Assembly (NCBI GenBank): GCA_004322465.1
Contig: SCVO01000083.1
Coordinates: 6,983 to 70,982, forward strand
Source of the DNA: Candidatus Nitrosotenuis sp.
Lineage (GTDB): Archaea > Thermoproteota > Nitrososphaeria > Nitrososphaerales > Nitrosopumilaceae
DNA length: 64,000 nt
Direction: 5' to 3'
Of this stretch, positions 48,648 through 61,331 are shown piece by piece. The notes beneath the pieces were generated by a model, which did no database searches, was not told the origin of the DNA, and saw only the letters and a program-made list of their open reading frames with translations. The position numbers were made by a program, and so were the translations under genes. Each line of letters opens with the position of its first letter. Position 1 is the stretch's first letter.

Positions 48648-48679
48648 GTATGTTGGTTAAATATGATCTAAAGTGCATC

Positions 48680-49240
48680 ATGCATGTGCTACAAACAAAA
48701 CCAGTAATCACCATACAGAATGTGGTGGCCTCGGCATCAGTCGGACAAAGAATAGATCTCGATCTTGTCACAAAGATCTTTCCCGATGTAGAGTACAACC
48801 CTGACCAATTCCCAGGACTGGTCTTCAGGCTGGAATCTCCGATGACTGCAACATTGATTTTTCGTACCGGCAAAATGGTCTGTACAGGATCAAAATCCGA
48901 AGAAAAAGCAATCCAAGCAGTAGGACTTGTGGTACAAAATCTCCGAACGGGCGGCATAAAAATAGAAAATGATGCAGTAATAACAATCCAGAACATAGTC
49001 GCTTCTGCAGACTTGGGCAGCAGAATACACTTGGAGGAGGCAGCAAGAACGTTGCCGCGAAGCATGTACGAGCCAGAACAGTTTCCCGGCCTCATATACA
49101 GAATGCCTGATCCAAAAACAGTGAGCCTGATCTTTGCATCAGGAAAAATAGTGTGCACCGGCGCAAAGAAGGAATCCGAAGTACACAGATCAGTACACAC
49201 ACTGCATGCGTTGCTTGAAGAAAAAAAGCTGATGGTCTAG
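48680..49240 (+). CDS. tbp: TATA-box-binding protein (accessory paralog)
   Basis: Two repeats IQNVVAS...YNPDQFPGL / IQNIVAS...YEPEQFPGL. Confidence 0.96.
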   Translation: MHVLQTKPVITIQNVVASASVGQRIDLDLVTKIFPDVEYNPDQFPGLVFRLESPMTATLIFRTGKMVCTGSKSEEKAIQAVGLVVQNLRTGGIKIENDAVITIQNIVASADLGSRIHLEEAARTLPRSMYEPEQFPGLIYRMPDPKTVSLIFASGKIVCTGAKKESEVHRSVHTLHALLEEKKLMV

Positions 49241-50755: not shown

Positions 50756-50794
50756 AATGATTGAAATACTGATTGTCACGAAGAAATGAAATGA

Positions 50795-52294
50795 CTACAT
50801 ATAAAATTTGAATTTGGTGCCGACTTCGTCTTTGATGTCTATATCTGGCGGCATTTCTCTGAGAATGCTACCAACTCGTCTTGCAAAGCCAATTGTGATC
50901 GGCGCTTTGGTGCAGAACTTTGCATTATTCCAGTTCAGCTTAGTCAGGGCCAAAATTTCTTTGCAAATTGTCTCAATTGATGTCTGTCCATGATGTTCCA
51001 AAATTTCAAGTGGCGACGGTACCCTGGGGCCAGGATATACATCCAAGTAAGGAATGTACCCGGAGGTGTAAAGCAAGACGCTATTGTCAGGAAGGCGAAC
51101 CATTGTGCCTCTGATTGGCGGGTTTGTGCCCCATCTCATGAGTTTGATATCCCTTTCTCCAAACGCAACAAGATCAACTCTGTGAACGTCTTTTGATCCC
51201 TCGGCAAATCCTGCCTGTTCTCCATCATCAAATCGCGAAGTCTTGTGGATAACAATTCTGCTTGGTGGCTGACCATTTCTGTTTCTTTTGTACACATCGA
51301 TTGCCTGCTGAATCAGGCTAGTCGCGTCGTTTTTTGATATATGCGCTGCGTTATTTTCATCAGTTGTGGCCTTGTTTCCTTTCAGAACATAGCCCTCAGT
51401 ATCCAGGGAAAACATTTGTGCCAATGCGGTTCTTACCATTGCGCTGTCTCCCCTGTCGCGGAAAAAGGAAATCCCGATATAGCAGGTGTCCTGCATCAGG
51501 CCACGCACTTGCCAAGGTATGTTGTTTGACTTGTAGAACATTGCGACTACAAGATTCCAAAACGTTGTAGCATCATCTTCTCTTCTTGGCTTTTCCGGAT
51601 TGTATGGTTCGGTTGTTTGAGGCCGTATGATTTGCACAGGAATGTTGTGCTGCATGCAGATTGCTTTCACAATGCTTCTCAGATCAACTGCGTTGTACTT
51701 TTTTGGGGGAGGTGGAGTGCCAAAAAAGTGATCCAGGGTCACATGCTTTGCCCTCATTCTTTCGATGTATTTTTCTAGAGATGTTTTGGTAATAGATCCA
51801 CGTTTTCCTATAGCACCGTCTATGCAGTAATGATCGATTTTCTTCGGATACGCCAAGACAAGAACGTTAGGCTGCGGATCCCTGTCCATCAGAGCCTTAA
51901 TCTTGTCCTTGATTATTCGAGCAGAGATCTCGACTCTCTCAGAAAAGGAACTGGTATTATCGAGCTGCTTGAGTTCTTTTTCATCAATTTCCGCAGTTGA
52001 CTTGACATTGAATTTGATGTTGAGTTTCTCAAGGCCTGGAAAATTCACATGAAGAAAGCTTTCGTCTTTGCCATACGTTGTCACATTCCATCTGGAAATG
52101 AAGTCTTTGGTTTTTTCTAGCGATTCAGAATCCCCTATCAGACCTATGTTTATCTCGTATCCCGATGGTTTGTTTCCCAATGGTCCCAGGAGTGTCCAGC
52201 CCATCTTTGGCTCTGGAACTGCTATTCCTTGGCCGACATCGACAAAAGGTTCTTCCAGATGTTTTATTGTGGGTTGGAATCGCGGTAATTTCAT
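50795..52294 (-). CDS. ago: Short prokaryotic Argonaute (MID-PIWI), catalytically inactive
   Basis: DLRSIVKA/PVQI/FYK..IPW MID, CYIGISF, IVIHKTSRF, YTSG, LTKLNWNN...PITI.FARRVG; no N/PAZ; DEDX replaced; start ATG 52294. Confidence 0.93.
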   Translation of the reverse strand: MKLPRFQPTIKHLEEPFVDVGQGIAVPEPKMGWTLLGPLGNKPSGYEINIGLIGDSESLEKTKDFISRWNVTTYGKDESFLHVNFPGLEKLNIKFNVKSTAEIDEKELKQLDNTSSFSERVEISARIIKDKIKALMDRDPQPNVLVLAYPKKIDHYCIDGAIGKRGSITKTSLEKYIERMRAKHVTLDHFFGTPPPPKKYNAVDLRSIVKAICMQHNIPVQIIRPQTTEPYNPEKPRREDDATTFWNLVVAMFYKSNNIPWQVRGLMQDTCYIGISFFRDRGDSAMVRTALAQMFSLDTEGYVLKGNKATTDENNAAHISKNDATSLIQQAIDVYKRNRNGQPPSRIVIHKTSRFDDGEQAGFAEGSKDVHRVDLVAFGERDIKLMRWGTNPPIRGTMVRLPDNSVLLYTSGYIPYLDVYPGPRVPSPLEILEHHGQTSIETICKEILALTKLNWNNAKFCTKAPITIGFARRVGSILREMPPDIDIKDEVGTKFKFYM

Positions 52295-52298
52295 TCTC

Positions 52299-53792
52299 TT
52301 ATTCCTCCATTGATGTTTCCGTGAGCGGATTGTCATCTTGAGAATCATTGTAGCTTATCTGATATTCTAACGGCTCCGACTTGAGCGAGTCAAGAAAGTC
52401 TCCGCCTGCATGCAAGTCGTTTAGTATGCCAAAATTCGTCTTGGAATTGATGGACAAAATTGATACTGTGATTCTTCCCTGACCATTGCCAAAGTGTATT
52501 TCTTCCCGGTTTCCTGCCAGAATGTGCAGCATAAGTTTTACATCATAAAGATAATTATTGTTATGATACCATGAATTTTTCTTGGTACTGATTCTCGTAT
52601 TCCATCTCTGATCTAGAGGGTTGCTTCCATCTTCGGTAAGCACGCGAATCGGTTCTATGGTGAGATAGATTCCGCCGCCAAGTATGATGAAACGCATTCT
52701 TGCGCCAAAATGTTCACAGTAAAGAAGATTGCCTTCTTTACTCAATCTTATGAAAACTAGTTTTCTTGTACTTGTCGACTTGTATGGCTTCCATGTTATC
52801 TCTGGAACCGGCCCGTCAAAATATCGGATAAAATATCTGTCACGTTTTACATCATGATAAAATCTTTTCTTCCTACACAGATCTTTTAGGTTGTAGTTTA
52901 GAAGCTTGATTAGATTTTGGTGTTTTGTTTCATCTACCAACCATTCTTGTGTAGGTATTGCTGGAAACTGAGTGTCTGTGCAAAAGGTAAGCGGGTTCAT
53001 ATCATCAAAGGGGCTGAATGAGTAGATTTTTTTGTCAGATAGCAGAAATGATGGAATGTCGTATTTTGTTATTCCCTGTTTGGCAAATTCTTCGCGTATG
53101 TGATCATAAACATCCTTTGGAGAGCGAGATTCAGTGCTTGCAACATGAATAAAATCAGGCAGTTCTGTTATTGGAAACAAATTGAACCACAAAGTCTCTT
53201 CAATTACGTCTGGCTGTGCTTTTCTATTCAGCACCGAGATCACTTCTAGAGGAGTTCCCTCAGAACCTGTTGTCTGTGCAGTTCTTTTTGTTAAAGATAC
53301 AAACAACTTCCAAAACTCCCCTCCCGTTGCAGAAACAGTGCTAGTGTTTTCCCTTGTGTAGATTATTCCTCTGTTGAACGCAATGGTAGGTTGTCCGCTG
53401 GGCAGATTATAAATTCCATCAGTTTTTGGTATTGCAAGAGATGAAACCGAGCCATGAATGTACAGTATTGGAAATTTGACTGCGTTTCCATCAACCTTAC
53501 CTGCATATTCCAAGTAGGTCAGGTTGATTTTTCCGTCAATCCATTTTGAAAATTTGTCGGCCCAAGTTTGAGAGTCTATGTGAAAACTTTGATCCATACC
53601 AATTGGTTTGAACGTTGCATCCTGTACTCCGAACACTATGTATCCACCCCCATGGTTGGCCATGCCATAGACATCTTTGGCAACTTCCATCCAAGATCCG
53701 GTGCTGTTGTCGAATTTTTCCTTATAATCAAGATCTGGGGATTCGTATCCTCTATGAACGAGTTCTTCCGCAAGTTCCGATGTCAGTTCCAT
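52299..53792 (-). CDS. Schlafen (AlbA_2) domain fused to APAZ: short-pAgo partner
   Basis: ESPDLDYKE...KDVYGMANHGGGYIVFGVQD; C-terminal WFNLFPITELP...YLTIEPIRVLTEDG...NNNY; 4 nt upstream of ago. Confidence 0.85.
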   Translation of the reverse strand: MELTSELAEELVHRGYESPDLDYKEKFDNSTGSWMEVAKDVYGMANHGGGYIVFGVQDATFKPIGMDQSFHIDSQTWADKFSKWIDGKINLTYLEYAGKVDGNAVKFPILYIHGSVSSLAIPKTDGIYNLPSGQPTIAFNRGIIYTRENTSTVSATGGEFWKLFVSLTKRTAQTTGSEGTPLEVISVLNRKAQPDVIEETLWFNLFPITELPDFIHVASTESRSPKDVYDHIREEFAKQGITKYDIPSFLLSDKKIYSFSPFDDMNPLTFCTDTQFPAIPTQEWLVDETKHQNLIKLLNYNLKDLCRKKRFYHDVKRDRYFIRYFDGPVPEITWKPYKSTSTRKLVFIRLSKEGNLLYCEHFGARMRFIILGGGIYLTIEPIRVLTEDGSNPLDQRWNTRISTKKNSWYHNNNYLYDVKLMLHILAGNREEIHFGNGQGRITVSILSINSKTNFGILNDLHAGGDFLDSLKSEPLEYQISYNDSQDDNPLTETSMEE

Positions 53793-53882
53793 ATTACCAC
53801 TGAATAATTAACTGCCTGACAAATAGATAAACAACTAGTAGATCTGGTAATAACAGAATAACCAACTAATGATAAAACAGAG

Positions 53883-54350
53883 TCAATCTTTTTTCTCCTT
53901 TTCTAAAACGTCCTGATAGATCCTCTTGCAGAACGTCTCAAAGAACTCCCGGTTCTTGCACATCTGGTCGTACTCTGCAATCAGGTCTACAATATGGTAT
54001 CTCTTCCAAGTATCGTATTTTGCAGATTCTAGCGACTTTCTGAGCTTTTCATCTGACATCAAATCTTCTTCTGACATCAGCCGGAGGCCCGTTTTGATGA
54101 AACCGGGAACAAATCCAAACGAGTCGATCTCGTACAGCATTATGTGGCCAAACCTGGAATACGGGTCGTATTTTTTGGCCTCCCCCACCACCTTTCCGTA
54201 ATCATCCACAAGATAGCCGTCGTAGAGCGACTCGTATCTTTTTGAATCATCAGTAGGTATGTCGACGCTAAAGTCATCAGCGAACCTGTCGTCGTCATCT
54301 GAGATGGCGCTCCCTCCTGTACTGCTGCATCTTTTTCTGGGCCTCCTCAA
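53883..54350 (-). CDS. Hypothetical acidic protein
   Basis: 155-aa ORF co-oriented with neighbours. Confidence 0.55.
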   Translation of the reverse strand: MRRPRKRCSSTGGSAISDDDDRFADDFSVDIPTDDSKRYESLYDGYLVDDYGKVVGEAKKYDPYSRFGHIMLYEIDSFGFVPGFIKTGLRLMSEEDLMSDEKLRKSLESAKYDTWKRYHIVDLIAEYDQMCKNREFFETFCKRIYQDVLEKEKKD

Positions 54351-54600
54351 ACGAGCAGGGCTGCCAACTGTGACATTTCGTGACGTTGTTCTCCGTCAGC
54401 TCGTCTAGGCTGATGTAGCCCCATTCCGCAAACTGATCATCGTTCAGGTTCGCATATCCGTAGGCAAGATTTTCCTTCTTGTCCAATTCTGCAACCAGCC
54501 AGTAGAAACCAATCTGCGGAATTTCCCATTTCTGGTAGATTATCTTCTTCTCAGCCGGTATGTCTTCGGTTTCGTATAGTTTTGGTATTTCATCTTCCAC
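54295..54600 (-). CDS. DUF2958-family protein
   Basis: IPKLYETE...W.V.E...AYG...EWGYISLDEL. Confidence 0.8.
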   Translation of the reverse strand: MEDEIPKLYETEDIPAEKKIIYQKWEIPQIGFYWLVAELDKKENLAYGYANLNDDQFAEWGYISLDELTENNVTKCHSWQPCSFEEAQKKMQQYRRERHLR

Positions 54601-54615
54601 TTGCTCACCTCATTA

Positions 54616-56451
54616 TCAAGTATTCAAGAAATCCTCTCCAGCCCGCATCTTTTCAAATACGGCCGGGACTTTTTGGATTGGCAGAAACAAAATCCGATTC
54701 TCCTTTGTTTTGGCAGAGAGGGCTTGGATGAGCTTGGAATCATCCGAGCAGACAATCACTTTCTTGAATTCTTGCAGATTTCTTTTCAGGTTGCCTGAGA
54801 TGTTTGATTTGCCGAGCTCCACTTCGATCACCATACTGTGTTCCAATACCTCTATGTCTGGACCATCTTTGTTTTTTCTGACATGATATCCCTTTGCGGT
54901 GAGACTTTCCGCTAGCCAGTTTACGTAGAACTCGTGCTTGACACTAGGTACAGCTCCGGGCTTCTGGTACAGGATCCTGGGAGATCCTCTGCCGAGCCTG
55001 ACTCTGACCATCTCAATTTTCTTCTTCCTCAGAAGGTCGTCAACTGTACTGGTGTACCTTTTGTCGTCCCATCCGAGCTTTGTGCGCCTTTCGATGACTG
55101 AGAGAAATGGTTCCTTGTCTATGCTTTCAAGGAAAGTGTAATTGTCGTCGTTGTCATCACCATTACCTTTGTCTCCTTTGTCTTCTTTGCTTGCTGTTGC
55201 TTCTGTTGCTGTTGCTGCAACTGCATCAACTGCTGTTGCTGCTGCAATTGTTGCTGCTTCAAGCGGCATAATGTCAAAGTTGTCAGCTGACACGAGGAAA
55301 GGTTCGTAACCGGACACAATTGCAATTGCAGTTGCGCGTGGCAACTTGACGAATCTGTCAGCAAGGTACTCGTATTCGACTTGGTCCACAAAGGCAGCTG
55401 CCTCTGCCAGAAGGCGTATGTCCTCCTGGTGCTGTAGACGAAAGGCTATCTTTGCGCCCGTGTTCTTGAATATGTCTTTCTCTATGTTGCTCGGCGACTG
55501 GGTGATCAGCACAAGACCGCAGCCTCGTTTTCTGAGGCGCGTCGCAAATTCAGTAGCCGGCCAGGACTCCGTCACGACGATTTTATGGAGAATCTTAGGG
55601 ACCAGCAACTGGGCCTCATCTGCTATGAACAGATTGGAGACCCATTCGCAGGTCCCACGATTCAGCATTTTTCTCAGATAGTAGGTCGTGATGGTGTTGT
55701 AGATGAGTCGTAGCTCCGAGTTGTATGCTACTAGCGCATCCAGCGCGTGCAAATCTATTATGACATTCTTTTCATCGAGCTTGGAAAAGTCCGGATTTGA
55801 TTTGTTGCAGAGAAAAATCTCCTTCAACGGAGAGCGCATGAACGGGTCGAGTCTGACTAGGAGGGCTGTCTTTGTCTTGTCAAGCGCGGTCAGCTTCTGC
55901 CTGTCATAGGATCTGATGTTTCTGATCAGTTCGTCTATACTGTGACTCTCGCTGATAGTCTCTTGCAGGACAAAATTCATTTGAGCTGATAAATCGATGT
56001 ATTCCTTCTCTATTCCCTTGAAAACTGTCTCTCTCATCAATTCCCTGATCAGTGCAGGATCTCCCAAATCAAACGGATTGATCTTCAGATTCCTGTCAAC
56101 TGAAAAATATTCAGTTGGGCCCTTCAGCTTCGGGATGATGTTTTTCCACTCACCCTCTACGTCTACTACCAAAAGCCTGATTTTTTGGAAAGATTCGTAG
56201 TTTGCTGACTTGACAGCAAGGTTCATCGCAAATCTGGTCTTACCAGTCCCGGTCTGACCGCTCACAAGAACATGAGTTGTCAAAAAGTTCACCGGAAAAT
56301 TGAATGGAAGGCCGTTGGACAGCTGACCGAGTCTCGGGCCCCAATAATCAAGGATTGGCGAGTTCTCTATTCTAAAGCGGAAGAACTTGCATCTCGGGCA
56401 GAACCTCTTGTCACGGACGAAGTTACCGCATATGCAGTACCAGCTCACCAT
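54616..56451 (-). CDS. HerA-like (DUF87) ATPase with N-terminal Zn ribbon and C-terminal wHTH + PD-(D/E)xK-like domain
   Basis: CICG..CPRC; GQTGTGKT; FIADEAQ; LRKRG..LITQSP; GPDIEV...IEVELG. Confidence 0.88.
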   Translation of the reverse strand: MVSWYCICGNFVRDKRFCPRCKFFRFRIENSPILDYWGPRLGQLSNGLPFNFPVNFLTTHVLVSGQTGTGKTRFAMNLAVKSANYESFQKIRLLVVDVEGEWKNIIPKLKGPTEYFSVDRNLKINPFDLGDPALIRELMRETVFKGIEKEYIDLSAQMNFVLQETISESHSIDELIRNIRSYDRQKLTALDKTKTALLVRLDPFMRSPLKEIFLCNKSNPDFSKLDEKNVIIDLHALDALVAYNSELRLIYNTITTYYLRKMLNRGTCEWVSNLFIADEAQLLVPKILHKIVVTESWPATEFATRLRKRGCGLVLITQSPSNIEKDIFKNTGAKIAFRLQHQEDIRLLAEAAAFVDQVEYEYLADRFVKLPRATAIAIVSGYEPFLVSADNFDIMPLEAATIAAATAVDAVAATATEATASKEDKGDKGNGDDNDDNYTFLESIDKEPFLSVIERRTKLGWDDKRYTSTVDDLLRKKKIEMVRVRLGRGSPRILYQKPGAVPSVKHEFYVNWLAESLTAKGYHVRKNKDGPDIEVLEHSMVIEVELGKSNISGNLKRNLQEFKKVIVCSDDSKLIQALSAKTKENRILFLPIQKVPAVFEKMRAGEDFLNT

Positions 56452-56509
56452 CCAGATGTTGACTGTGTTAAGAACTAGGTTACGGGTGTGAGATTCCGCT
56501 AGATGTCAG

Positions 56510-57301
56510 TTACTTGAGAAACTTTTCCAAAGATTTTCTGAGCTGACTGATGATGGTTTGGAGTGAAGGCATTTTTCCTCTACTGAGTCTGGTGAGACCG
56601 GTTTCAAGGTGCGGCTCTAGCGTCTTTATGATGTCTTTTGGAAAGAACTGATCTAATCCGGTAAATTTCACACCTTTGGCATTGCATTTTTCAACAAACA
56701 GCTCTTTTGTCTTCTTCTTGTCGAACTTTCCGATCTTTAACAGCCTCCAGACATCGTAATAGTCTCTGATATATCCACGCTCGATGATTGCTCTGGTCTT
56801 TTCGGCAACCAGTGTTTCAAGAGTATAGACATTCACGGAAAACTTTGGATAATCGAATTTCTTTGGAACTTGCTTCTTAACAACGTCTCCAACAAATTTT
56901 TCCCGAGTGATCTCAATTTTGATTGTGTTAGTATTTACCGGCCCCTTGTACTTCATCTTGGCTTGTAGATAGTCAGGGTTTGTGTGAGGTTTCGGCCTGA
57001 GACTGACCTCTATGCCGACCGAACCCTTGACTATTTTTGGCACTTCGTTTTTCAATGCTTCTATGATGGTCTTCCAATCGGTGTTGTCAAGCAATGTGAA
57101 ATCAAGGTCTTCAGAAAGCCTCCATCTGGTCGGGAAGTAAACCTTTGAAAGTGCAGTGCCTCCTTTGAATGCAAGCTTGCTTGCCAATGAGCTTGACGCT
57201 ATTGCAAAAAGCAGCCATCCCAAGACGTAGTCTTTTTCGAGCATTGAGACGTCAAGGTTTTCTTTACCTGCTTGTCTTCTGAGCGATTTTCCGTCTATCA
57301 T
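56510..57301 (-). CDS. abiEii: AbiEii-family nucleotidyltransferase toxin
   Basis: LEKDY, FKGGTAL, RLSEDLDF, EK.RA, RDYYD. Confidence 0.93.
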   Translation of the reverse strand: MIDGKSLRRQAGKENLDVSMLEKDYVLGWLLFAIASSSLASKLAFKGGTALSKVYFPTRWRLSEDLDFTLLDNTDWKTIIEALKNEVPKIVKGSVGIEVSLRPKPHTNPDYLQAKMKYKGPVNTNTIKIEITREKFVGDVVKKQVPKKFDYPKFSVNVYTLETLVAEKTRAIIERGYIRDYYDVWRLLKIGKFDKKKTKELFVEKCNAKGVKFTGLDQFFPKDIIKTLEPHLETGLTRLSRGKMPSLQTIISQLRKSLEKFLK

Positions 57302-58117
57302 CTAATGCCTCATCCACCTTGTCAGTGAGTCCTTTGTCCTGTTGAGAATAAGTCCATACTCGTGTGAGTATTCTATGTTTTCTTTTGGCCAGCTAGGATC
57401 GAGCAACAAAAATCCTTTTGGTTTTGGCATCTCTATCATGTTCTTTACTTTCTTACTCATCTTCAATATTTCGAGCAGATACAAAAGCCTCCTGGTCACC
57501 ACATCCACCTTTATGTCTCTGGCATAGTTGAATAGTTTGAGAAAATCTAGTCCGTCTCCTTCTTCCCATATGGCCTTTGCCACTTCGTCGAGGCCTCCAC
57601 AATATTCTGGGTGCAAAAGACAATCGATTATTGTTTTTTCTTTGTCAGATACGTTAAAACTATCATTACCGATCTTCCCTTCTGTCGTCCCAAAGAATCT
57701 CTTTTTTGTTATTGTAACAAACTTGAATGTGAGTGGTCCGAACTTGATATTCTCTTTTCTCTTGGTTGTCACTACAAAGGTCACACTCGGGACCTGTTCT
57801 GTCATGCCCCAATAGTTGAGGGCAGATGCAAATCCGATGTAGTATGGTTTCACTAGGTGGTTGGCTATGACAAAAGGCACTTCTGCCCATTTACCTTTGT
57901 ATCCTGCCTTGGCCGGTATGAGAAGATACTTTCCGCGTTCTATCTTTTCGACTCTTCCCTTCTTTCTGAGTCTGTATAATGCAGTGTTGACGGAGTCTCT
58001 TGTTGATTTGAGTATCTTGTAGGCATCTGCTGTAGTAAAGATGCTCTTCTCTTCCCCCTCGAGCGTTAGTATCAACTTCAATTCCGTGCTTCCTAGCCTT
58101 ATGTTCTTTGTAGACAT
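57302..58117 (-). CDS. abiEi: AbiEi-family antitoxin / type IV TA regulator
   Basis: wHTH (LRKKGRVEKIERGKY), YIGFASALNYWG, SDKEKTIID. Confidence 0.92.
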   Translation of the reverse strand: MSTKNIRLGSTELKLILTLEGEEKSIFTTADAYKILKSTRDSVNTALYRLRKKGRVEKIERGKYLLIPAKAGYKGKWAEVPFVIANHLVKPYYIGFASALNYWGMTEQVPSVTFVVTTKRKENIKFGPLTFKFVTITKKRFFGTTEGKIGNDSFNVSDKEKTIIDCLLHPEYCGGLDEVAKAIWEEGDGLDFLKLFNYARDIKVDVVTRRLLYLLEILKMSKKVKNMIEMPKPKGFLLLDPSWPKENIEYSHEYGLILNRTKDSLTRWMRH

Positions 58118-58199
58118 AATGTCTCCTAAAGACATTATAGTGACACAAGTATTAAAATATGTTCTTTGTAATCATAATGTCTCCTAACGACACTATAGT
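58100..58199. promoter_or_regulatory. abiE operator: two 42-bp direct repeats (58100-58141, 58158-58199) each containing ATAATGTC-N7-GACATTAT
   Basis: 4 mismatches between copies; AT-rich TATA-like sequence between them. Confidence 0.8.
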
Positions 58200-58218
58200 T
58201 ACAAAAGAATTATTGGAA

Positions 58219-58802: not shown

Positions 58803-60008
58803 CTAGGATTGATCATCTCTGTTGATCTTCGTCAGTGCAACTCTCAGCTTCTCGAATTTCTGCGGTTCTGCGGCAATTCCGTAGATGAGCTTGTCTAGCA
58901 TAGTTTTATTTTGGTCAACATCACTGGATGTAGATGTGTCTAGTAGTGCACCGCATCTGTTGCAGAACTTGGAGACATGAGAATTCTCAAGGCTGCATCT
59001 GAAACACTTTTTCGGTTGTGAATTGACAACGACTGTTTTCTCTTGCGGCTTTATCCCGTTCATGATCGACTGCGCATTGTCGATGTGCTTTCCGTATCTT
59101 TTCATGTATGTGGCAGGCATGGCAGAGCCGAACCTCCATCCAAACATCATGCATTGCTGGGGCTCGGTAAGAATTCCCTGCGTCTCGTCTACCCTGGTGT
59201 GCCTGAAAAGGTAGTAGAAGATCCTCTTCTTGATTCCAGCTCTCTTTGCCGCCTTTTTCAGAATAGACACGGCAGCAGCATATGTGATCTGGTTCATCAG
59301 ATTAGTGCTGCCAAACCCAATCCATACCGGGCAATCGGGATGGTTCCTTCCTGGGTGATGGTCAAGCCATATGGCAAGCGAGGGCGCGGAAGAGATTATC
59401 CTCACAAAGTCGGATCCTATCTTTCCGTCAACGTAGAGTTTGGCTCCTATGGTGTCGAATTCTATGTCACTGAGATGCAGTGTGAGAATCTCCTCAAGTC
59501 TTCTTCCTGACTCAAATAGAATCTCAAACAACGCCCTGTCTCTTGGATTGTAGGTTGCACGTAGGAGGGCATCCTTCTCCTCCGGCGTGAGGAGGTCCTT
59601 TGGAAGTATCGGCCTTTTGTTTTGCGCACTGGAAGTCTTTTTGATCCACCTAACCTCCGGCGGCGCACCGTCCTCCCAGTTCCTGAACCATTTGTAAAAA
59701 TGCTTTAGAATCACCTTGTAGTCTCTCTTGGTCCAGTCCGACCAGTCGGTGCTTTCAAACTCTGAAACAAGCTTCACAAAGTCGTCCTTTGTGGCGTCCG
59801 CAAATGACTTTCCAAGCATTCTGGAAATGAGCTTGATGGTATTGAGACACTTATGGATCCTTGCAGGGCTGATGCCCTCCGCCACCCTGGACTGATGATA
59901 CTTTAGAATTGATTCGGCATTGTGTGGATCCTCTTTGATAAATTCCAGTTCTCTTTCTATTCTCTTCCTGAGTGGATAGATCTCTAGTGCTCGGCTCATC
60001 CGCATCAC
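58803..60008 (-). CDS. Tyrosine recombinase / integrase 3 with C-terminal Zn ribbon
   Basis: SGRRLEE (R), YLFRH, MFGW, ATY; CFRC..CNRC. Confidence 0.92.
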   Translation of the reverse strand: MMRMSRALEIYPLRKRIERELEFIKEDPHNAESILKYHQSRVAEGISPARIHKCLNTIKLISRMLGKSFADATKDDFVKLVSEFESTDWSDWTKRDYKVILKHFYKWFRNWEDGAPPEVRWIKKTSSAQNKRPILPKDLLTPEEKDALLRATYNPRDRALFEILFESGRRLEEILTLHLSDIEFDTIGAKLYVDGKIGSDFVRIISSAPSLAIWLDHHPGRNHPDCPVWIGFGSTNLMNQITYAAAVSILKKAAKRAGIKKRIFYYLFRHTRVDETQGILTEPQQCMMFGWRFGSAMPATYMKRYGKHIDNAQSIMNGIKPQEKTVVVNSQPKKCFRCSLENSHVSKFCNRCGALLDTSTSSDVDQNKTMLDKLIYGIAAEPQKFEKLRVALTKINRDDQS

Positions 60009-60084
60009 ATTGTTTTATGTTATATTCCGTTTTGCGACTGTAACGTTCCGTTACATTTCCGCAAGATTCTCAGATGGAGACATT

Positions 60085-60193
60085 AGCCGATACCAGTGGC
60101 TCGCAGGGAGCATCACTCATTAGGTTCAAATCTTCTCCGCAGAGGAGATTTGTTCCGATGTGATGTGCTCCCAGCGAGCACCTAATTACGGCT
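60085..60193. other. Long imperfect stem-loop between integrase 3 and cdc6
   Basis: GCTCGCAGGGAGCATCAC pairs with GTGATGTGCTCCCAGCGAGC; inner CAAATCTTCTC-CGCA-GAGGAGATTTG. Confidence 0.7.
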
Positions 60194-60316
60194 CATATCT
60201 CGCGCCGAAAATCTCTGAAAGATCACGGTTTTCAACTAAGAAATCTATAGCTGTCCCAGAATAGCTATTTTCCAAAAGCGATTTTCTATCGGAAAATCAC
60301 CGTGGCAAAGGTTAAG

Positions 60317-60332
60317 CTGGACAAATGTCCAG
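60317..60332. promoter_or_regulatory. Palindrome CTGGACA-AA-TGTCCAG (mini-ORB-like) upstream of cdc6
   Basis: TCCAG/CTGGA core resembles archaeal origin-recognition boxes. Confidence 0.4.
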
Positions 60333-60347
60333 TTTTACGAAGATACG

Positions 60348-61331
60348 ATGGGGAGGCCTATAATATTGGATGAAGGTCTGCTGCATGAGGCCTTCCTACC
60401 TCAAAAGACGCTTTGCAGAGATAGTCACAAAAATGAGATTCTCAACTGTTTATCTCCAATAAAGACTGGCAATCTGGCAAGAAACCTCTACGTATACGGC
60501 TCTCCTGGAGCCGGCAAATCAACCGTAGTCCGGTCGATATTACGTGATCACTTCAAAGACATGCATGTGTATGTCAATTGCTGGTCGAACAGGACCTCTC
60601 ACAAGGTCATGGAGGAGATACTCAGTCAGATGGGTTTCATGATCCACGGAAAAGAGTCTACAAGTGAACTGATTCGCAAATTTGAGAAGTTAAAGCGCAA
60701 GGTCATAATCTGCCTTGACGAAGCAGACCACCTGAAGGACAATGATCTACTCTATACTTTTACACGAAACTCATGTCCTTTGATTCTGATATCAAACTAC
60801 TCTTATTCTCCAATAAACATGGACAACAGGATCAGAAGCAGCCTGCACCTGCATGAGGTGGAGTTTGGCGGCTACGAGCCACATGAGATTACACAGATAC
60901 TGCAAGACAGAATAGATTCTGGACTTCATCCTCAATCCATTTCTGATGAGCTCATCTCAGAGATTGCAAAGTCAAGCGGTGGGGATGCTCGAGCCAGCAT
61001 ACAGATTCTGAAAAACGCGGCAATCGATGCGGAATCAAGAGGTTCCGAAACTATTGCCTTGGACCATGTAAAGGTCGCAACAAAGTGCGCAAGAAAATAC
61101 CGACTATCATATCTTCTTAGAAAACTAAACGAGCACCAACAGACCCTCTATGAATTGCTAAAGCAGAACAAGGTAATGGACTCTGGACGACTGTTCAACC
61201 AATATAGAAAATCAATGGATGAAACCGTCACCGACCGCTCGTACCGCAACTACATGACAAAAATGGTTGAACTTGGCCTAGTAAGGCAGATTGGTTCCGG
61301 ACGATGGAAAAAATATGAAGTTACATTGTAG
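60348..61331 (+). CDS. cdc6: Cdc6/Orc1-family replication initiator
   Basis: GSPGAGKS, YVNC, LDEAD, GDAR, C-terminal wHTH. Confidence 0.93.
   Translation: MGRPIILDEGLLHEAFLPQKTLCRDSHKNEILNCLSPIKTGNLARNLYVYGSPGAGKSTVVRSILRDHFKDMHVYVNCWSNRTSHKVMEEILSQMGFMIHGKESTSELIRKFEKLKRKVIICLDEADHLKDNDLLYTFTRNSCPLILISNYSYSPINMDNRIRSSLHLHEVEFGGYEPHEITQILQDRIDSGLHPQSISDELISEIAKSSGGDARASIQILKNAAIDAESRGSETIALDHVKVATKCARKYRLSYLLRKLNEHQQTLYELLKQNKVMDSGRLFNQYRKSMDETVTDRSYRNYMTKMVELGLVRQIGSGRWKKYEVTL

What the first reader, a model, noticed from the sequence alone, without database searches (positions are those of the whole stretch)
50795..53792. Short prokaryotic Argonaute coupled to a Schlafen-APAZ effector
Seen: two-gene operon with a 4-nt gap. 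The pAgo is MID-PIWI only, with the catalytic Asp positions replaced (GISF, HKT). The partner has an N-terminal AlbA_2/Schlafen domain with E17, D22, K24 and D58, matching the spacing of SLFN11 E209/E214/D252, and a C-terminal APAZ-like region. Known: short pAgo-APAZ complexes use guides to detect invading nucleic acid and activate TIR, SIR2 or DNase effectors; Schlafen domains cleave tRNA/rRNA. Inference: a guide-triggered tRNase/ribonuclease abortive-infection system in an archaeon. I know of no characterised example, but cannot check the literature.
Basis: partly seen in the sequence, partly recalled or inferred. Interest (0 to 1): 0.9.

Follow-up and report, generated by a model that had tools for sequence, protein, structure and literature searches.

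The report
Archaeal short Argonaute with Schlafen-APAZ partner
An ammonia-oxidiser-type archaeon carries an intact two-gene defence cassette: a non-cutting short Argonaute sensor and a partner that joins a Schlafen-type RNase to the Argonaute-docking APAZ domain. It probably cuts tRNA when foreign DNA is detected; this pairing is already listed in surveys but has never been tested.

Summary
On the minus strand, a 497-aa gene (52299-53792) is followed after a 4-nt gap by a 499-aa gene (50795-52294).

- **Partner protein.** It has an N-terminal single-lobe Schlafen/AlbA_2 domain. The nuclease motif E17-x4-D22-x-K24, the Schlafen-box N46 and D58 are all conserved. Its C-terminal half is a genuine APAZ domain by sequence and by fold; the closest solved relatives are the SPARHA and SPARDA APAZ domains.
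- **Argonaute.** It is a MID-PIWI short pAgo. The catalytic DEDD tetrad is replaced by S/A/T/R, while the 5'-phosphate pocket (R206/K210/Q221/K255) is intact.
- **Conservation.** The pair is conserved as adjacent genes in about 74 protein clusters from Nitrososphaerota and Bathyarchaeia. More distant SLFN-APAZ proteins exist, including single-chain SLFN-APAZ-pAgo fusions.
- **Setting.** The cassette sits in an integrase-bearing accessory block next to an AbiE toxin-antitoxin pair.

The most likely mechanism is guide-directed target recognition, then oligomerisation, then Schlafen tRNase activity and abortive infection. This is inferred, not shown.

SLFN-APAZ partners of short pAgos are listed in published surveys, and Argonaute-to-Schlafen tRNase coupling was shown in 2026 for a fused long-B pAgo (RzAgo). 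No paper I could search characterises the short-pAgo/SLFN-APAZ form. Verdict: a new member of a catalogued, untested kind.

The parts
52299..53792 (-). SLFN-APAZ effector gene (497 aa). Layout: Schlafen/AlbA_2 nuclease domain about residues 1-155; helical linker about 157-192; APAZ about 192-445; acidic C-terminal tail about 459-497.
   Evidence: Pfam PF04326, E=9e-11. PADLOC APAZ models, E=3e-25. PDB 9om4_A HNH-APAZ, E=3.6e-10. Foldseek on the APAZ half and on the Schlafen domain. 74 orthologue clusters.
53721..53744 (-). Codons for the Schlafen catalytic motif E17-x4-D22-x-K24.
   Evidence: E17 72/72, D22 70 D plus 2 E, K24 72/72 across SLFN-APAZ proteins. The same triad, with the same numbering, is the proven catalytic centre of CbCash (PMC13462974).
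53619..53669 (-). Codons 42-58: Schlafen box (YGMAN, N46), glycine/hydrophobic core (GGGYIVFGV) and the candidate third acidic ligand D58.
   Evidence: N46 72/72, G50 and G55 72/72, D58 is D/E in 63/72. The motif is described for SLFN-pAgos and mammalian SLFNs in bioRxiv 10.64898/2026.05.29.728809, section 10.
52302..52418 (-). Codons about 459-497: conserved acidic C-terminal tail (DFLDSLKSEPLEY...NPLTETSMEE).
   Evidence: Net charge of the last 40 residues averages -12.5 (range -16 to -9) in 41 orthologues. Motifs are conserved. AF2 confidence is low here. An autoinhibitory role is inferred by analogy with the SPARTA C-tail (bioRxiv 10.1101/2023.07.12.548734).
50795..52294 (-). Short pAgo gene (499 aa, MID-PIWI only, catalytically inactive).
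   Evidence: PADLOC pAgo_I, E=1.7e-127. PDB best hits: SPARHA pAgo 9om4_B at 4.3e-61, SPARDA pAgos at 1e-55 to 1e-58, SPARTA at 1e-40 to 1e-42, SPARSA at 1e-24. Tetrad is S276/A317/T352/R472; MID pocket R206/K210/Q221/K255 is kept.
53793..53882 (-). 90-nt A+T-rich intergenic region upstream of the operon; presumed promoter.
   Evidence: Sequence. Not conserved with the congeneric locus L011, where homology stops at 53894, so it moves with the cassette. No archaeal promoter tool was available, so this is an inference.

Best explanation
This is a two-subunit short-Argonaute defence system whose effector is a Schlafen-type ribonuclease.

**Shown by computation.**
- The two genes form a tightly linked, conserved pair.
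- The pAgo cannot slice but keeps the pocket for a 5'-phosphorylated guide.
- The partner has a genuine APAZ domain, the module that docks onto short pAgos and completes the nucleic-acid channel.
- The partner also has a single-lobe Schlafen domain with the complete E-x4-D-x-K / Schlafen-box / acidic-residue signature.

**Inferred from characterised relatives.**
1. The heterodimer loads a small 5'-P guide, most likely RNA.
2. It scans for complementary invader DNA.
3. Target binding rearranges the pAgo/APAZ core and drives assembly of tetramers or filaments, as in SPARTA, SPARDA and SPARHA.
4. Assembly brings the single-lobe Schlafen domains together into the paired geometry they need for activity.
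5. The activated, metal-dependent nuclease cleaves host tRNAs, stops translation, and aborts infection or plasmid establishment.

The strongly acidic, conserved C-terminal tail of the partner may occupy the nucleic-acid channel as an autoinhibitory mimic until a guide-target duplex displaces it. That last step is speculative.
For: **Domain identity.** Pfam SLFN_AlbA_2, E=9e-11. PADLOC APAZ models at 3e-25 and pAgo_I at 1.7e-127. PDB sequence hits to SPARHA chains A and B. The Foldseek top 50 for the full-length model are all short-pAgo-system chains, essentially all APAZ-bearing partner subunits. The top 30 for the N-domain model (pLDDT 95) are all Schlafen-fold proteins, including SLFN13/11/5/12/14 and the SAMD9 tRNase.

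**Catalytic signature.** E17 72/72, D22 72/72 as D or E, K24 72/72, N46 72/72, D58 63/72 as D or E. E17/D22/K24 is the experimentally proven catalytic triad of CbCash (PMC13462974). Ex4(E/D)xK is the defining motif of prokaryotic Schlafen tRNases (PMC13056530).

**pAgo.** DEDD is replaced by S/A/T/R, and MID R/K/Q/K is retained in 69/69 close and 37/37 more distant relatives for K, Q and K.

**Coupling of the two genes.**
- Adjacent with 3-5 nt gaps in L002, L003 and L004.
- Adjacent in two divergent congeneric loci.
- Single-chain SLFN-APAZ-pAgo fusions exist: P0246, 981 aa, E=7e-79 to the window pAgo; P0209.

**Selection.** pN is 0.13-0.14 against pS of about 0.8 versus the 78%-identical orthologue.

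**Defence and mobile context.** AbiEi/AbiEii, integrase and a VirB4/CedD-like ATPase are adjacent. Type I R-M lies next to the pair in L003 and an R-M-like methylase in L011. Distribution is patchy: full-length SLFN-APAZ in 4 of 401 genomes of the phylum.

**Mechanistic precedents.** RzAgo shows guide- and target-licensed SLFN tRNA cleavage that needs SLFN dimerisation (bioRxiv 10.64898/2026.05.29.728809). SPARHA describes a 'universal activation pathway' in short pAgo systems (PMC12738770).
Against: - There are no experimental data for any short-pAgo/SLFN-APAZ system, and nothing here tests activity, guide type, target type or substrate.
- No multimer prediction was available, so the heterodimer interface and the oligomer geometry are unverified.
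- D58 is less conserved in the broad family (63/72) than D40, D73 or E95, and I could not inspect model coordinates. The third metal ligand is therefore not pinned down.
- Schlafen-fold proteins differ in substrate: tRNA, rRNA, ssRNA, or DNA binding only.
- RzAgo needs a GHKL ATPase to pair its SLFN domains. That module is absent here, so assembly would have to rely on the pAgo/APAZ scaffold alone.
Confidence: 0.7

Rival explanations
1. Same sensor logic, different substrate. The activated Schlafen domain degrades rRNA, mRNA or single-stranded nucleic acid non-specifically (collateral nuclease, like SPARDA/SPARHA) rather than specifically cleaving tRNA.
For: The pAgo is closest to the nuclease-associated clade, SPARHA and SPARDA, whose effectors are indiscriminate. 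Among the Foldseek hits are SLFN14 and SLFN5, described as acting on or binding rRNA/ssRNA/DNA.
Against: All three characterised prokaryotic Schlafen effectors cleave tRNA and carry the same Ex4(D/E)xK centre: RorSlfn5 (PMC13056530), CbCash (PMC13462974) and RzAgo (bioRxiv 10.64898/2026.05.29.728809).
Confidence: 0.18
2. The AlbA_2/Schlafen domain is a non-catalytic nucleic-acid-binding or regulatory module, as older surveys labelled it. The system then acts by binding or sequestering nucleic acid, or needs a further effector.
For: Ryazansky et al. 2018 (PMC6299218) listed Schlafen/AlbA_2 as a DNA-binding domain, and PMC5995195 as a 'predicted regulatory ATPase'. Several mammalian SLFNs lack catalytic residues.
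Against: The catalytic E, D/E and K are invariant across 72 sequences that share as little as 22% identity overall, which is hard to explain without catalysis. No third gene is conserved across loci.
Confidence: 0.05
3. The cassette mainly serves the mobile element that carries it, through competition with rival plasmids or elements or through element maintenance, rather than protecting the host from viruses. The biochemistry would be the same.
For: The operon ends a collinear block with a VirB4/CedD-like ATPase, a toxin-antitoxin slot and an integrase. Distribution within the genus is patchy. SPARTA and SPARSA act on plasmids (PMC9097488).
Against: No att sites were found, so the element boundaries are unproven. 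The pair also occurs outside this block, next to R-M systems. No viral contig carries it.
Confidence: 0.15

Closest known systems
SPARHA (short pAgo + HNH-APAZ; AcaSPARHA, PDB 9om4; PMC12738770) and SPARDA (short pAgo + DREN-APAZ; PDB 9qbp, 9jsb)
   Same: Two-gene layout with the effector-APAZ gene first and an inactive MID-PIWI pAgo second. These are the closest solved relatives of both subunits: pAgo 4.3e-61, APAZ 3.6e-10, Foldseek 1e-12. Activation by RNA-guided DNA recognition and filament assembly is therefore likely shared.
   Different: The effector domain here is a Schlafen RNase fold, not an HNH or PD-(D/E)xK DNase. The expected substrate is tRNA/RNA rather than DNA. The host is archaeal.
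SLFN-pAgo (RzAgo of Runella zeae; bioRxiv 10.64898/2026.05.29.728809)
   Same: An Argonaute sensor coupled to a single-lobe Schlafen nuclease with the Ex4(D/E)xK motif and Schlafen box. Target DNA recognition licenses tRNA cleavage, which causes abortive infection.
   Different: RzAgo is one polypeptide of the long-B clade with a GHKL ATPase that drives tetramerisation. The window system is a heterodimer of a short pAgo and SLFN-APAZ. No GHKL domain is present (no HATPase hit), and that paper reports the SLFN-APAZ Schlafen domains as only distantly related to its own.
Stand-alone prokaryotic Schlafen effectors: RorSlfn5 (PMC13056530) and CRISPR-associated CbCash (PMC13462974)
   Same: N-terminal single-lobe Schlafen domain. 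The catalytic triad sits at the same positions (E17/D22/K24 in CbCash). The sensor domain is fused C-terminally, and oligomerisation or filamentation activates the enzyme.
   Different: Their sensors are an Ig-like phage-protein receptor or a cA4-binding Csx15 domain. Here the sensor is APAZ plus a guide-loaded pAgo.
SPARTA (short pAgo + TIR-APAZ; PDB 8fex, 8isy)
   Same: Heterodimer architecture, and an acidic C-terminal tail on the APAZ protein. In SPARTA that tail occupies the nucleic-acid channel and autoinhibits the complex (bioRxiv 10.1101/2023.07.12.548734).
   Different: The SPARTA effector is a TIR NADase. Its pAgo is more distant (about 1e-42). The role of the tail in the window protein is only an analogy.

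Membership tests
Short prokaryotic Argonaute (MID-PIWI) | Only MID and PIWI domains, about 450-520 aa, no N or PAZ domain | tested here: met
   499 aa. The end-to-end match to PADLOC pAgo_I covers model positions 3-455 of 455. Full-length alignments to the short pAgos of SPARHA, SPARDA and SPARTA.
Short prokaryotic Argonaute (MID-PIWI) | PIWI catalytic DEDX tetrad substituted | tested here: met
   Aligned to TtAgo D478/E512/D546/D660, the window protein has S276/A317/T352/R472. None of the 69 close relatives has an acidic residue at any of the four positions.
Short prokaryotic Argonaute (MID-PIWI) | MID pocket for the guide 5'-phosphate (R/Y/H-K-Q-K) | tested here: met
   R206, K210, Q221 and K255 align to TtAgo R418, K422, Q433 and K457. 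K, Q and K are invariant in 106 relatives.
APAZ-effector partner of short pAgos | APAZ domain (N-L1-L2-like) encoded in the same operon | tested here: met
   PADLOC Aga_*-PNTD1-PNTD2 on residues 192-432, E=3e-25. 9om4_A, E=3.6e-10. Foldseek E=1e-12, TM 0.74 on the target. 4-nt gap to the pAgo gene.
APAZ-effector partner of short pAgos | Forms a heterodimer with the pAgo | not testable with these tools
   No multimer prediction was available. Indirect support comes from conserved adjacency and natural fusions.
Schlafen (SLFN_AlbA_2) nuclease | Schlafen C-lobe-like alpha+beta fold | tested here: met
   PF04326 at 42.8 bits against a cut-off of 25.3. The AF2 N-domain model has pLDDT 95.1, and Foldseek hits 1-30 are all Schlafen-fold proteins.
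Schlafen (SLFN_AlbA_2) nuclease | E-x4-(D/E)-x-K catalytic motif | tested here: met
   E17, D22 and K24 are present, and conserved 72/72, 72/72 (70 D, 2 E) and 72/72.
Schlafen (SLFN_AlbA_2) nuclease | Schlafen box (SAFAN-like) followed by a Gly/hydrophobic core and a third acidic metal ligand | tested here: inconclusive
   YGMAN with invariant N46 and GGGYIVFGV are present. D58 lies 12 residues after N46 and is D/E in 63/72, with an acidic residue within one position in 70/72. I could not inspect coordinates to confirm that D58 is the ligand.
Schlafen (SLFN_AlbA_2) nuclease | Divalent-metal-dependent tRNA/RNA cleavage | not testable with these tools
   Requires biochemistry.
SPARHA / SPARDA (clade S2B nuclease systems) | HNH or DREN (PD-(D/E)xK) DNase fused to APAZ | tested here: not met
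   The N-terminal domain is Schlafen/AlbA_2, not HNH or a restriction-endonuclease fold. PADLOC REase-APAZ models match only the APAZ part, residues 192-432.
SLFN-pAgo (RzAgo type) | Single polypeptide: SLFN + GHKL ATPase + long-B Ago core | tested here: not met
   Two separate genes. There is no GHKL/HATPase hit, and the Ago is of the short clade.

The most novel reading that the evidence does not exclude
Short-pAgo/SLFN-APAZ would be an experimentally uncharted, ATPase-independent route from an Argonaute sensor to a Schlafen tRNase.
- Target-induced assembly of the pAgo/APAZ scaffold alone, with no GHKL module, would pair single-lobe Schlafen domains into the active bilobed enzyme.
- The conserved, strongly acidic C-terminal tail would act as a nucleic-acid-mimic safety catch.
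- In this archaeal genus, the same element backbone (VirB4/CedD-like ATPase, orf101, orf155; 76% nt identity) carries two SLFN-APAZ/pAgo lineages that share only 25% and 33% protein identity. This points to cassette exchange between deeply diverged versions of one system type.
Probability: 0.35. Interest if true: 0.55.

Novelty: new member of a known kind. Interest (0 to 1): 0.38.

Why it matters
If the inferred mechanism holds, this would be the heterodimeric, ATPase-free counterpart of the recently described fused Schlafen-Argonaute. It would show that the short-pAgo/APAZ scaffold can drive an RNase that shuts down translation, as well as NADases and DNases.

It would also add a guide-programmable tRNase from ammonia-oxidising and Bathyarchaeia-type archaea, whose antiviral systems are almost unstudied experimentally. 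The family is compact (two proteins of about 500 aa), well conserved and has clear catalytic residues, so it is directly testable in E. coli. It is not a new concept, because both the architecture and the Ago-to-Schlafen logic are in the literature.

Tried and rejected
**Searches that found nothing or failed.**
- Profile search of the word-indexed protein database with the broad alignment A2 returned only the close family again, so it added no taxonomic names for distant members.
- The search for related loci with A2 failed because the alignment had no stretch conserved enough to search with. With A1 it found 3 genomes and no viral contigs.
- The search for att-like direct repeats flanking the block found nothing (whole window at seed 14; targeted k-mer search around 50.4-50.9 kb against 58.1-61 kb). 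No tRNA genes are in the window. The element boundaries stay undefined.
- The sigma-70 promoter and terminator scan does not apply to an archaeon and was no better than shuffles.
- Synonymous sites are saturated against the nearest orthologue, so dN/dS could not be computed; only pN and pS are given.
- Model coordinates are not exposed, so clustering of E17, D22 and D58 in 3D could not be checked.

**Ideas rejected.**
- orf155, orf101 and the HerA-like ATPase are not obligate parts of the system. They accompany the pair only in three loci of this genus-level lineage and are absent from L002, L003, L005, L006 and L012.
- The 50-nt overlap of the mechanical pAgo ORF is not real; orthologue lengths support the 52294 start.
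Full report
**What is in the sequence**

Two minus-strand ORFs occupy exactly the flagged interval. The upstream gene (52299-53792, 497 aa) ends in TAA. Four bases later (GAGA) comes an ATG at 52294 that opens a 499-aa frame ending at 50795. The ORF finder extends the second frame to an ATG inside the first gene (52348). Orthologues are 493-499 aa and begin MK(L/F), so 52294 is the real start and the '4-nt gap' is right. A 90-nt A+T-rich spacer precedes the first gene.

**The partner protein**

Sequence and fold evidence:
- Pfam places SLFN_AlbA_2 (PF04326) on residues 17-152, at 42.8 bits against a cut-off of 25.3.
- PADLOC models of Argonaute-associated APAZ proteins (Aga_REase-, Aga_SIR2-PNTD1-PNTD2) match residues 192-432 at up to E=3e-25.
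- The only solved-structure sequence hit is the HNH-APAZ subunit of AcaSPARHA (9om4_A, E=3.6e-10), over the APAZ part only.
- An AlphaFold2 model built on 41 orthologues has mean pLDDT 82. Its Foldseek hits are short-pAgo-system chains from SPARHA, SPARDA, SPARTA and SPARSA, essentially all APAZ-bearing partner subunits. The best is 9om4_A (E=1e-12, TM 0.74 on the target).
- A separate model of residues 1-180 has pLDDT 95.1 and pTM 0.90. Its Foldseek hits 1-30 are all Schlafen-fold proteins: DIP2311, SLFN13, SLFN5, SLFN11, SLFN12, SLFN14 and the SAMD9 tRNase domain.

The domain is a single lobe of about 155 residues, like the catalytic C-lobe of mammalian Schlafens.

**Catalytic signature**

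I counted residues across 72 SLFN-APAZ proteins, 41 close and 31 distant, the latter down to 22% overall identity.

| Position | Conservation |
|---|---|
| E17 | 72/72 |
| D22 | 70 D + 2 E |
| K24 | 72/72 |
| N46 (Schlafen box) | 72/72 |
| G50, G55 | 72/72 |
| D58 | D/E in 63/72; acidic within one position in 70/72 |

- E-x4-(D/E)-x-K is the defining motif of prokaryotic Schlafen tRNases (PMC13056530).
- In CbCash the proven catalytic triad is E17/D22/K24, literally the same positions. E17Q, D22N and K24A abolish tRNA cleavage there (PMC13462974).
- The SAFAN box with a downstream Gly/hydrophobic stretch and an acidic metal triad is described for RzAgo and human SLFN11 (bioRxiv 10.64898/2026.05.29.728809, section 10).
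- D40, D73 and E95 are even better conserved than D58, and I could not inspect coordinates. The third metal ligand is therefore not settled.

**The Argonaute**

- PADLOC pAgo_I matches end to end (E=1.7e-127).
- Solved relatives rank SPARHA pAgo (4.3e-61), then the SPARDA pAgos (1e-55 to 1e-58), SPARTA (about 1e-42) and SPARSA (1e-24). It therefore sits nearest the nuclease-associated short pAgos.
- I fetched TtAgo from plasmid pTT27 as a ruler and aligned it with 106 relatives.
- TtAgo D478/E512/D546/D660 correspond to S276/A317/T352/R472 in the window protein. No acidic residue occurs at these positions in the 69 close relatives.
- The MID 5'-phosphate pocket is kept: R206, K210, Q221 and K255 align with TtAgo R418, K422, Q433 and K457, and K, Q and K are invariant.

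The protein is therefore a guide-binding, non-slicing sensor.

**Is the pair a unit?**

- The partner has 74 clusters at 45% identity or more over full length, and the pAgo has a matching set.
- In every locus examined the two genes are adjacent and co-oriented, with gaps of a few bases: L002, L003 and L004, plus two divergent pairs in complete genomes of the same genus.
- An exhaustive search of 1.8 billion representative proteins found about 38 further 50%-identity clusters that span both the Schlafen and APAZ domains at 22-39% identity.
- Two hits are single chains in which SLFN-APAZ is fused to a short pAgo: P0246 (981 aa, E=7e-79 to the window pAgo) and P0209. This is a classical gene-fusion ('Rosetta stone') indication of physical coupling.
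- Against the 78%-identical orthologue, non-synonymous differences are 0.13-0.14 per site while synonymous sites are saturated at about 0.8, so both genes are under purifying selection.

**Host and setting**

- The window encodes TBP, Cdc6/Orc1 and P-II.
- The nearest named carriers are a Candidatus Nitrosotenuis MAG (78%) and two Bathyarchaeia MAGs (58-61%).
- The system is rare and patchy. Full-length SLFN-APAZ occurs in 4 of 401 genomes sampled across the phylum. Within the genus, only this genome has this lineage and 3 of 36 others have a distant one.
- It is absent from the viral contig collection.
- The operon closes a block that is collinear at 77% nucleotide identity with the Nitrosotenuis MAG (window 50785-56502). 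In the window, that block continues through an AbiEi/AbiEii pair to a tyrosine integrase.
- The AbiE slot holds other genes in the MAG.
- In a congeneric complete genome, the backbone (VirB4/CedD-like ATPase, orf101, orf155) is conserved at 76% nucleotide identity. The slot downstream, however, holds a SLFN-APAZ/pAgo pair only 25% and 33% identical to this one.
- I found no att repeats, so mobility is suggested but not shown.

**How it most likely works**

Shown: the parts list above. Inferred from characterised relatives:
1. The heterodimer binds a 5'-P guide, which is RNA in all short pAgo systems studied.
2. It recognises complementary DNA.
3. It oligomerises. SPARTA forms tetramers and SPARDA and SPARHA form filaments, and the SPARHA paper argues for a universal activation cascade in short pAgo systems (PMC12738770).
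4. Oligomerisation matters because prokaryotic Schlafen domains have one lobe and become active only when paired or polymerised: RzAgo by dimerisation, CbCash by filaments, RorSlfn5 by trigger-induced oligomers.
5. The activated enzyme would cut tRNA loops, arrest translation and abort the infection.

The last 40 residues carry a mean net charge of -12.5 across orthologues, with conserved DFLD.LKSEP and NPLTE motifs. SPARTA's acidic C-tail blocks the nucleic-acid channel (bioRxiv 10.1101/2023.07.12.548734), so a similar safety catch is plausible here but untested.

**Comparison with what is known, and novelty**

- It works like SPARHA/SPARDA (sensor and scaffold) combined with RzAgo/CbCash (effector).
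- It is a member of neither SPARHA/SPARDA (no HNH or DREN domain) nor the SLFN-pAgo family (two genes, short clade, no GHKL ATPase).
- The architecture itself is already listed. 'Schlafen/Alba' appears among APAZ-appended domains (bioRxiv 10.1101/2023.07.12.548734). Schlafen and APAZ boxes appear in archaeal pAgo neighbourhoods (PMC5995195). An APAZ orthogroup with SIR2 plus Schlafen is reported in PMC6299218. [quoted passage not shown] 1e of the RzAgo preprint.
- Four full-text searches found no experimental study of this subtype.
- Neither NCBIfam nor PADLOC has a dedicated model. NCBIfam gave no hit for the partner, and PADLOC matched only its APAZ part through models of other effector types. 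Public records name these proteins 'ATP-binding' or 'helix-turn-helix domain-containing'.
- Earlier notes from this scan describe the same subtype in other archaeal genomes and reach the same conclusion. They are not independent evidence.

**Verdict**

Novelty is modest: a new member of a catalogued but uncharacterised kind. Interest is 0.38. It is a good, tractable candidate for biochemistry but would not surprise a specialist after the 2026 Schlafen papers.

Noticed in passing
window 56510-58135 (minus), repeats at 58100-58212: There is an AbiEi/AbiEii type IV toxin-antitoxin pair (PADLOC E=8e-83 and 3e-68). Two tandem 55-nt repeats (87% identical, spacing 58 nt) sit over and upstream of the abiEi start, and look like an AbiEi operator. 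The whole TA module is missing from the otherwise collinear Nitrosotenuis MAG locus L004, where other genes fill the slot.
   Followed up: partly
window 53883-56451 (minus); L004 2370-4911; L011 7416-9999: The backbone consists of a 611-aa HerA/VirB4/CedD-like ATPase (N-terminal zinc ribbon, C-terminal PD..ExK-like segment), orf101 (weak DUF2958 hit) and orf155. It is conserved at 76-93% protein identity in two other genomes. In one of them (G022) the slot downstream holds a SLFN-APAZ/pAgo pair only 25%/33% identical to this one, so deeply diverged versions of the same system type occupy the same locus.
   Followed up: partly
L005 6499-7988 (Bathyarchaeia MAG CAZOPV010000005.1): The pAgo partner gene here is split across three reading frames, with one in-frame TAA, while the adjacent SLFN-APAZ gene is intact. 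This is either a decaying copy or an assembly error.
   Followed up: no
P0246 (981 aa) and P0209 (913 aa): These are natural single-chain fusions of SLFN-APAZ with a short pAgo (MID-PIWI), analogous to the SIR2-APAZ-pAgo fusions of clade S1A.
   Followed up: partly
G061 (Ca. Nitrosotenuis MAG) C5:122149-123654: A second short pAgo, 36% identical to the window's, lies elsewhere in the genome that also carries the 79%-identical orthologue. Its partner gene was not examined.
   Followed up: no
window 58803-61331: A tyrosine integrase (XerA-like, 401 aa, minus strand) lies next to a Cdc6/Orc1-type AAA+ protein (327 aa, plus strand). Together with the accessory TBP at 48650-49240, this suggests a large integrated element or island. 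No att repeats or tRNA genes were found.
   Followed up: partly
window 19173-48675 (e.g. 30944, 31451, 36998, 41756, 43699, 48630): A palindromic box, TTTAC(A/G)(A/T)(A/T)(T/C)GTAAA, recurs upstream of many genes in the 19-49 kb part of the window. It is absent from the pAgo operon's upstream region.
   Followed up: no
window 52299-53792, public annotation: Public records name orthologues of the SLFN-APAZ protein 'ATP-binding protein', 'helix-turn-helix domain-containing protein' or 'hypothetical protein'. NCBIfam has no model for it and PADLOC 2.0 has no dedicated Schlafen-APAZ model, so automated pipelines will miss this subtype.
   Followed up: yes
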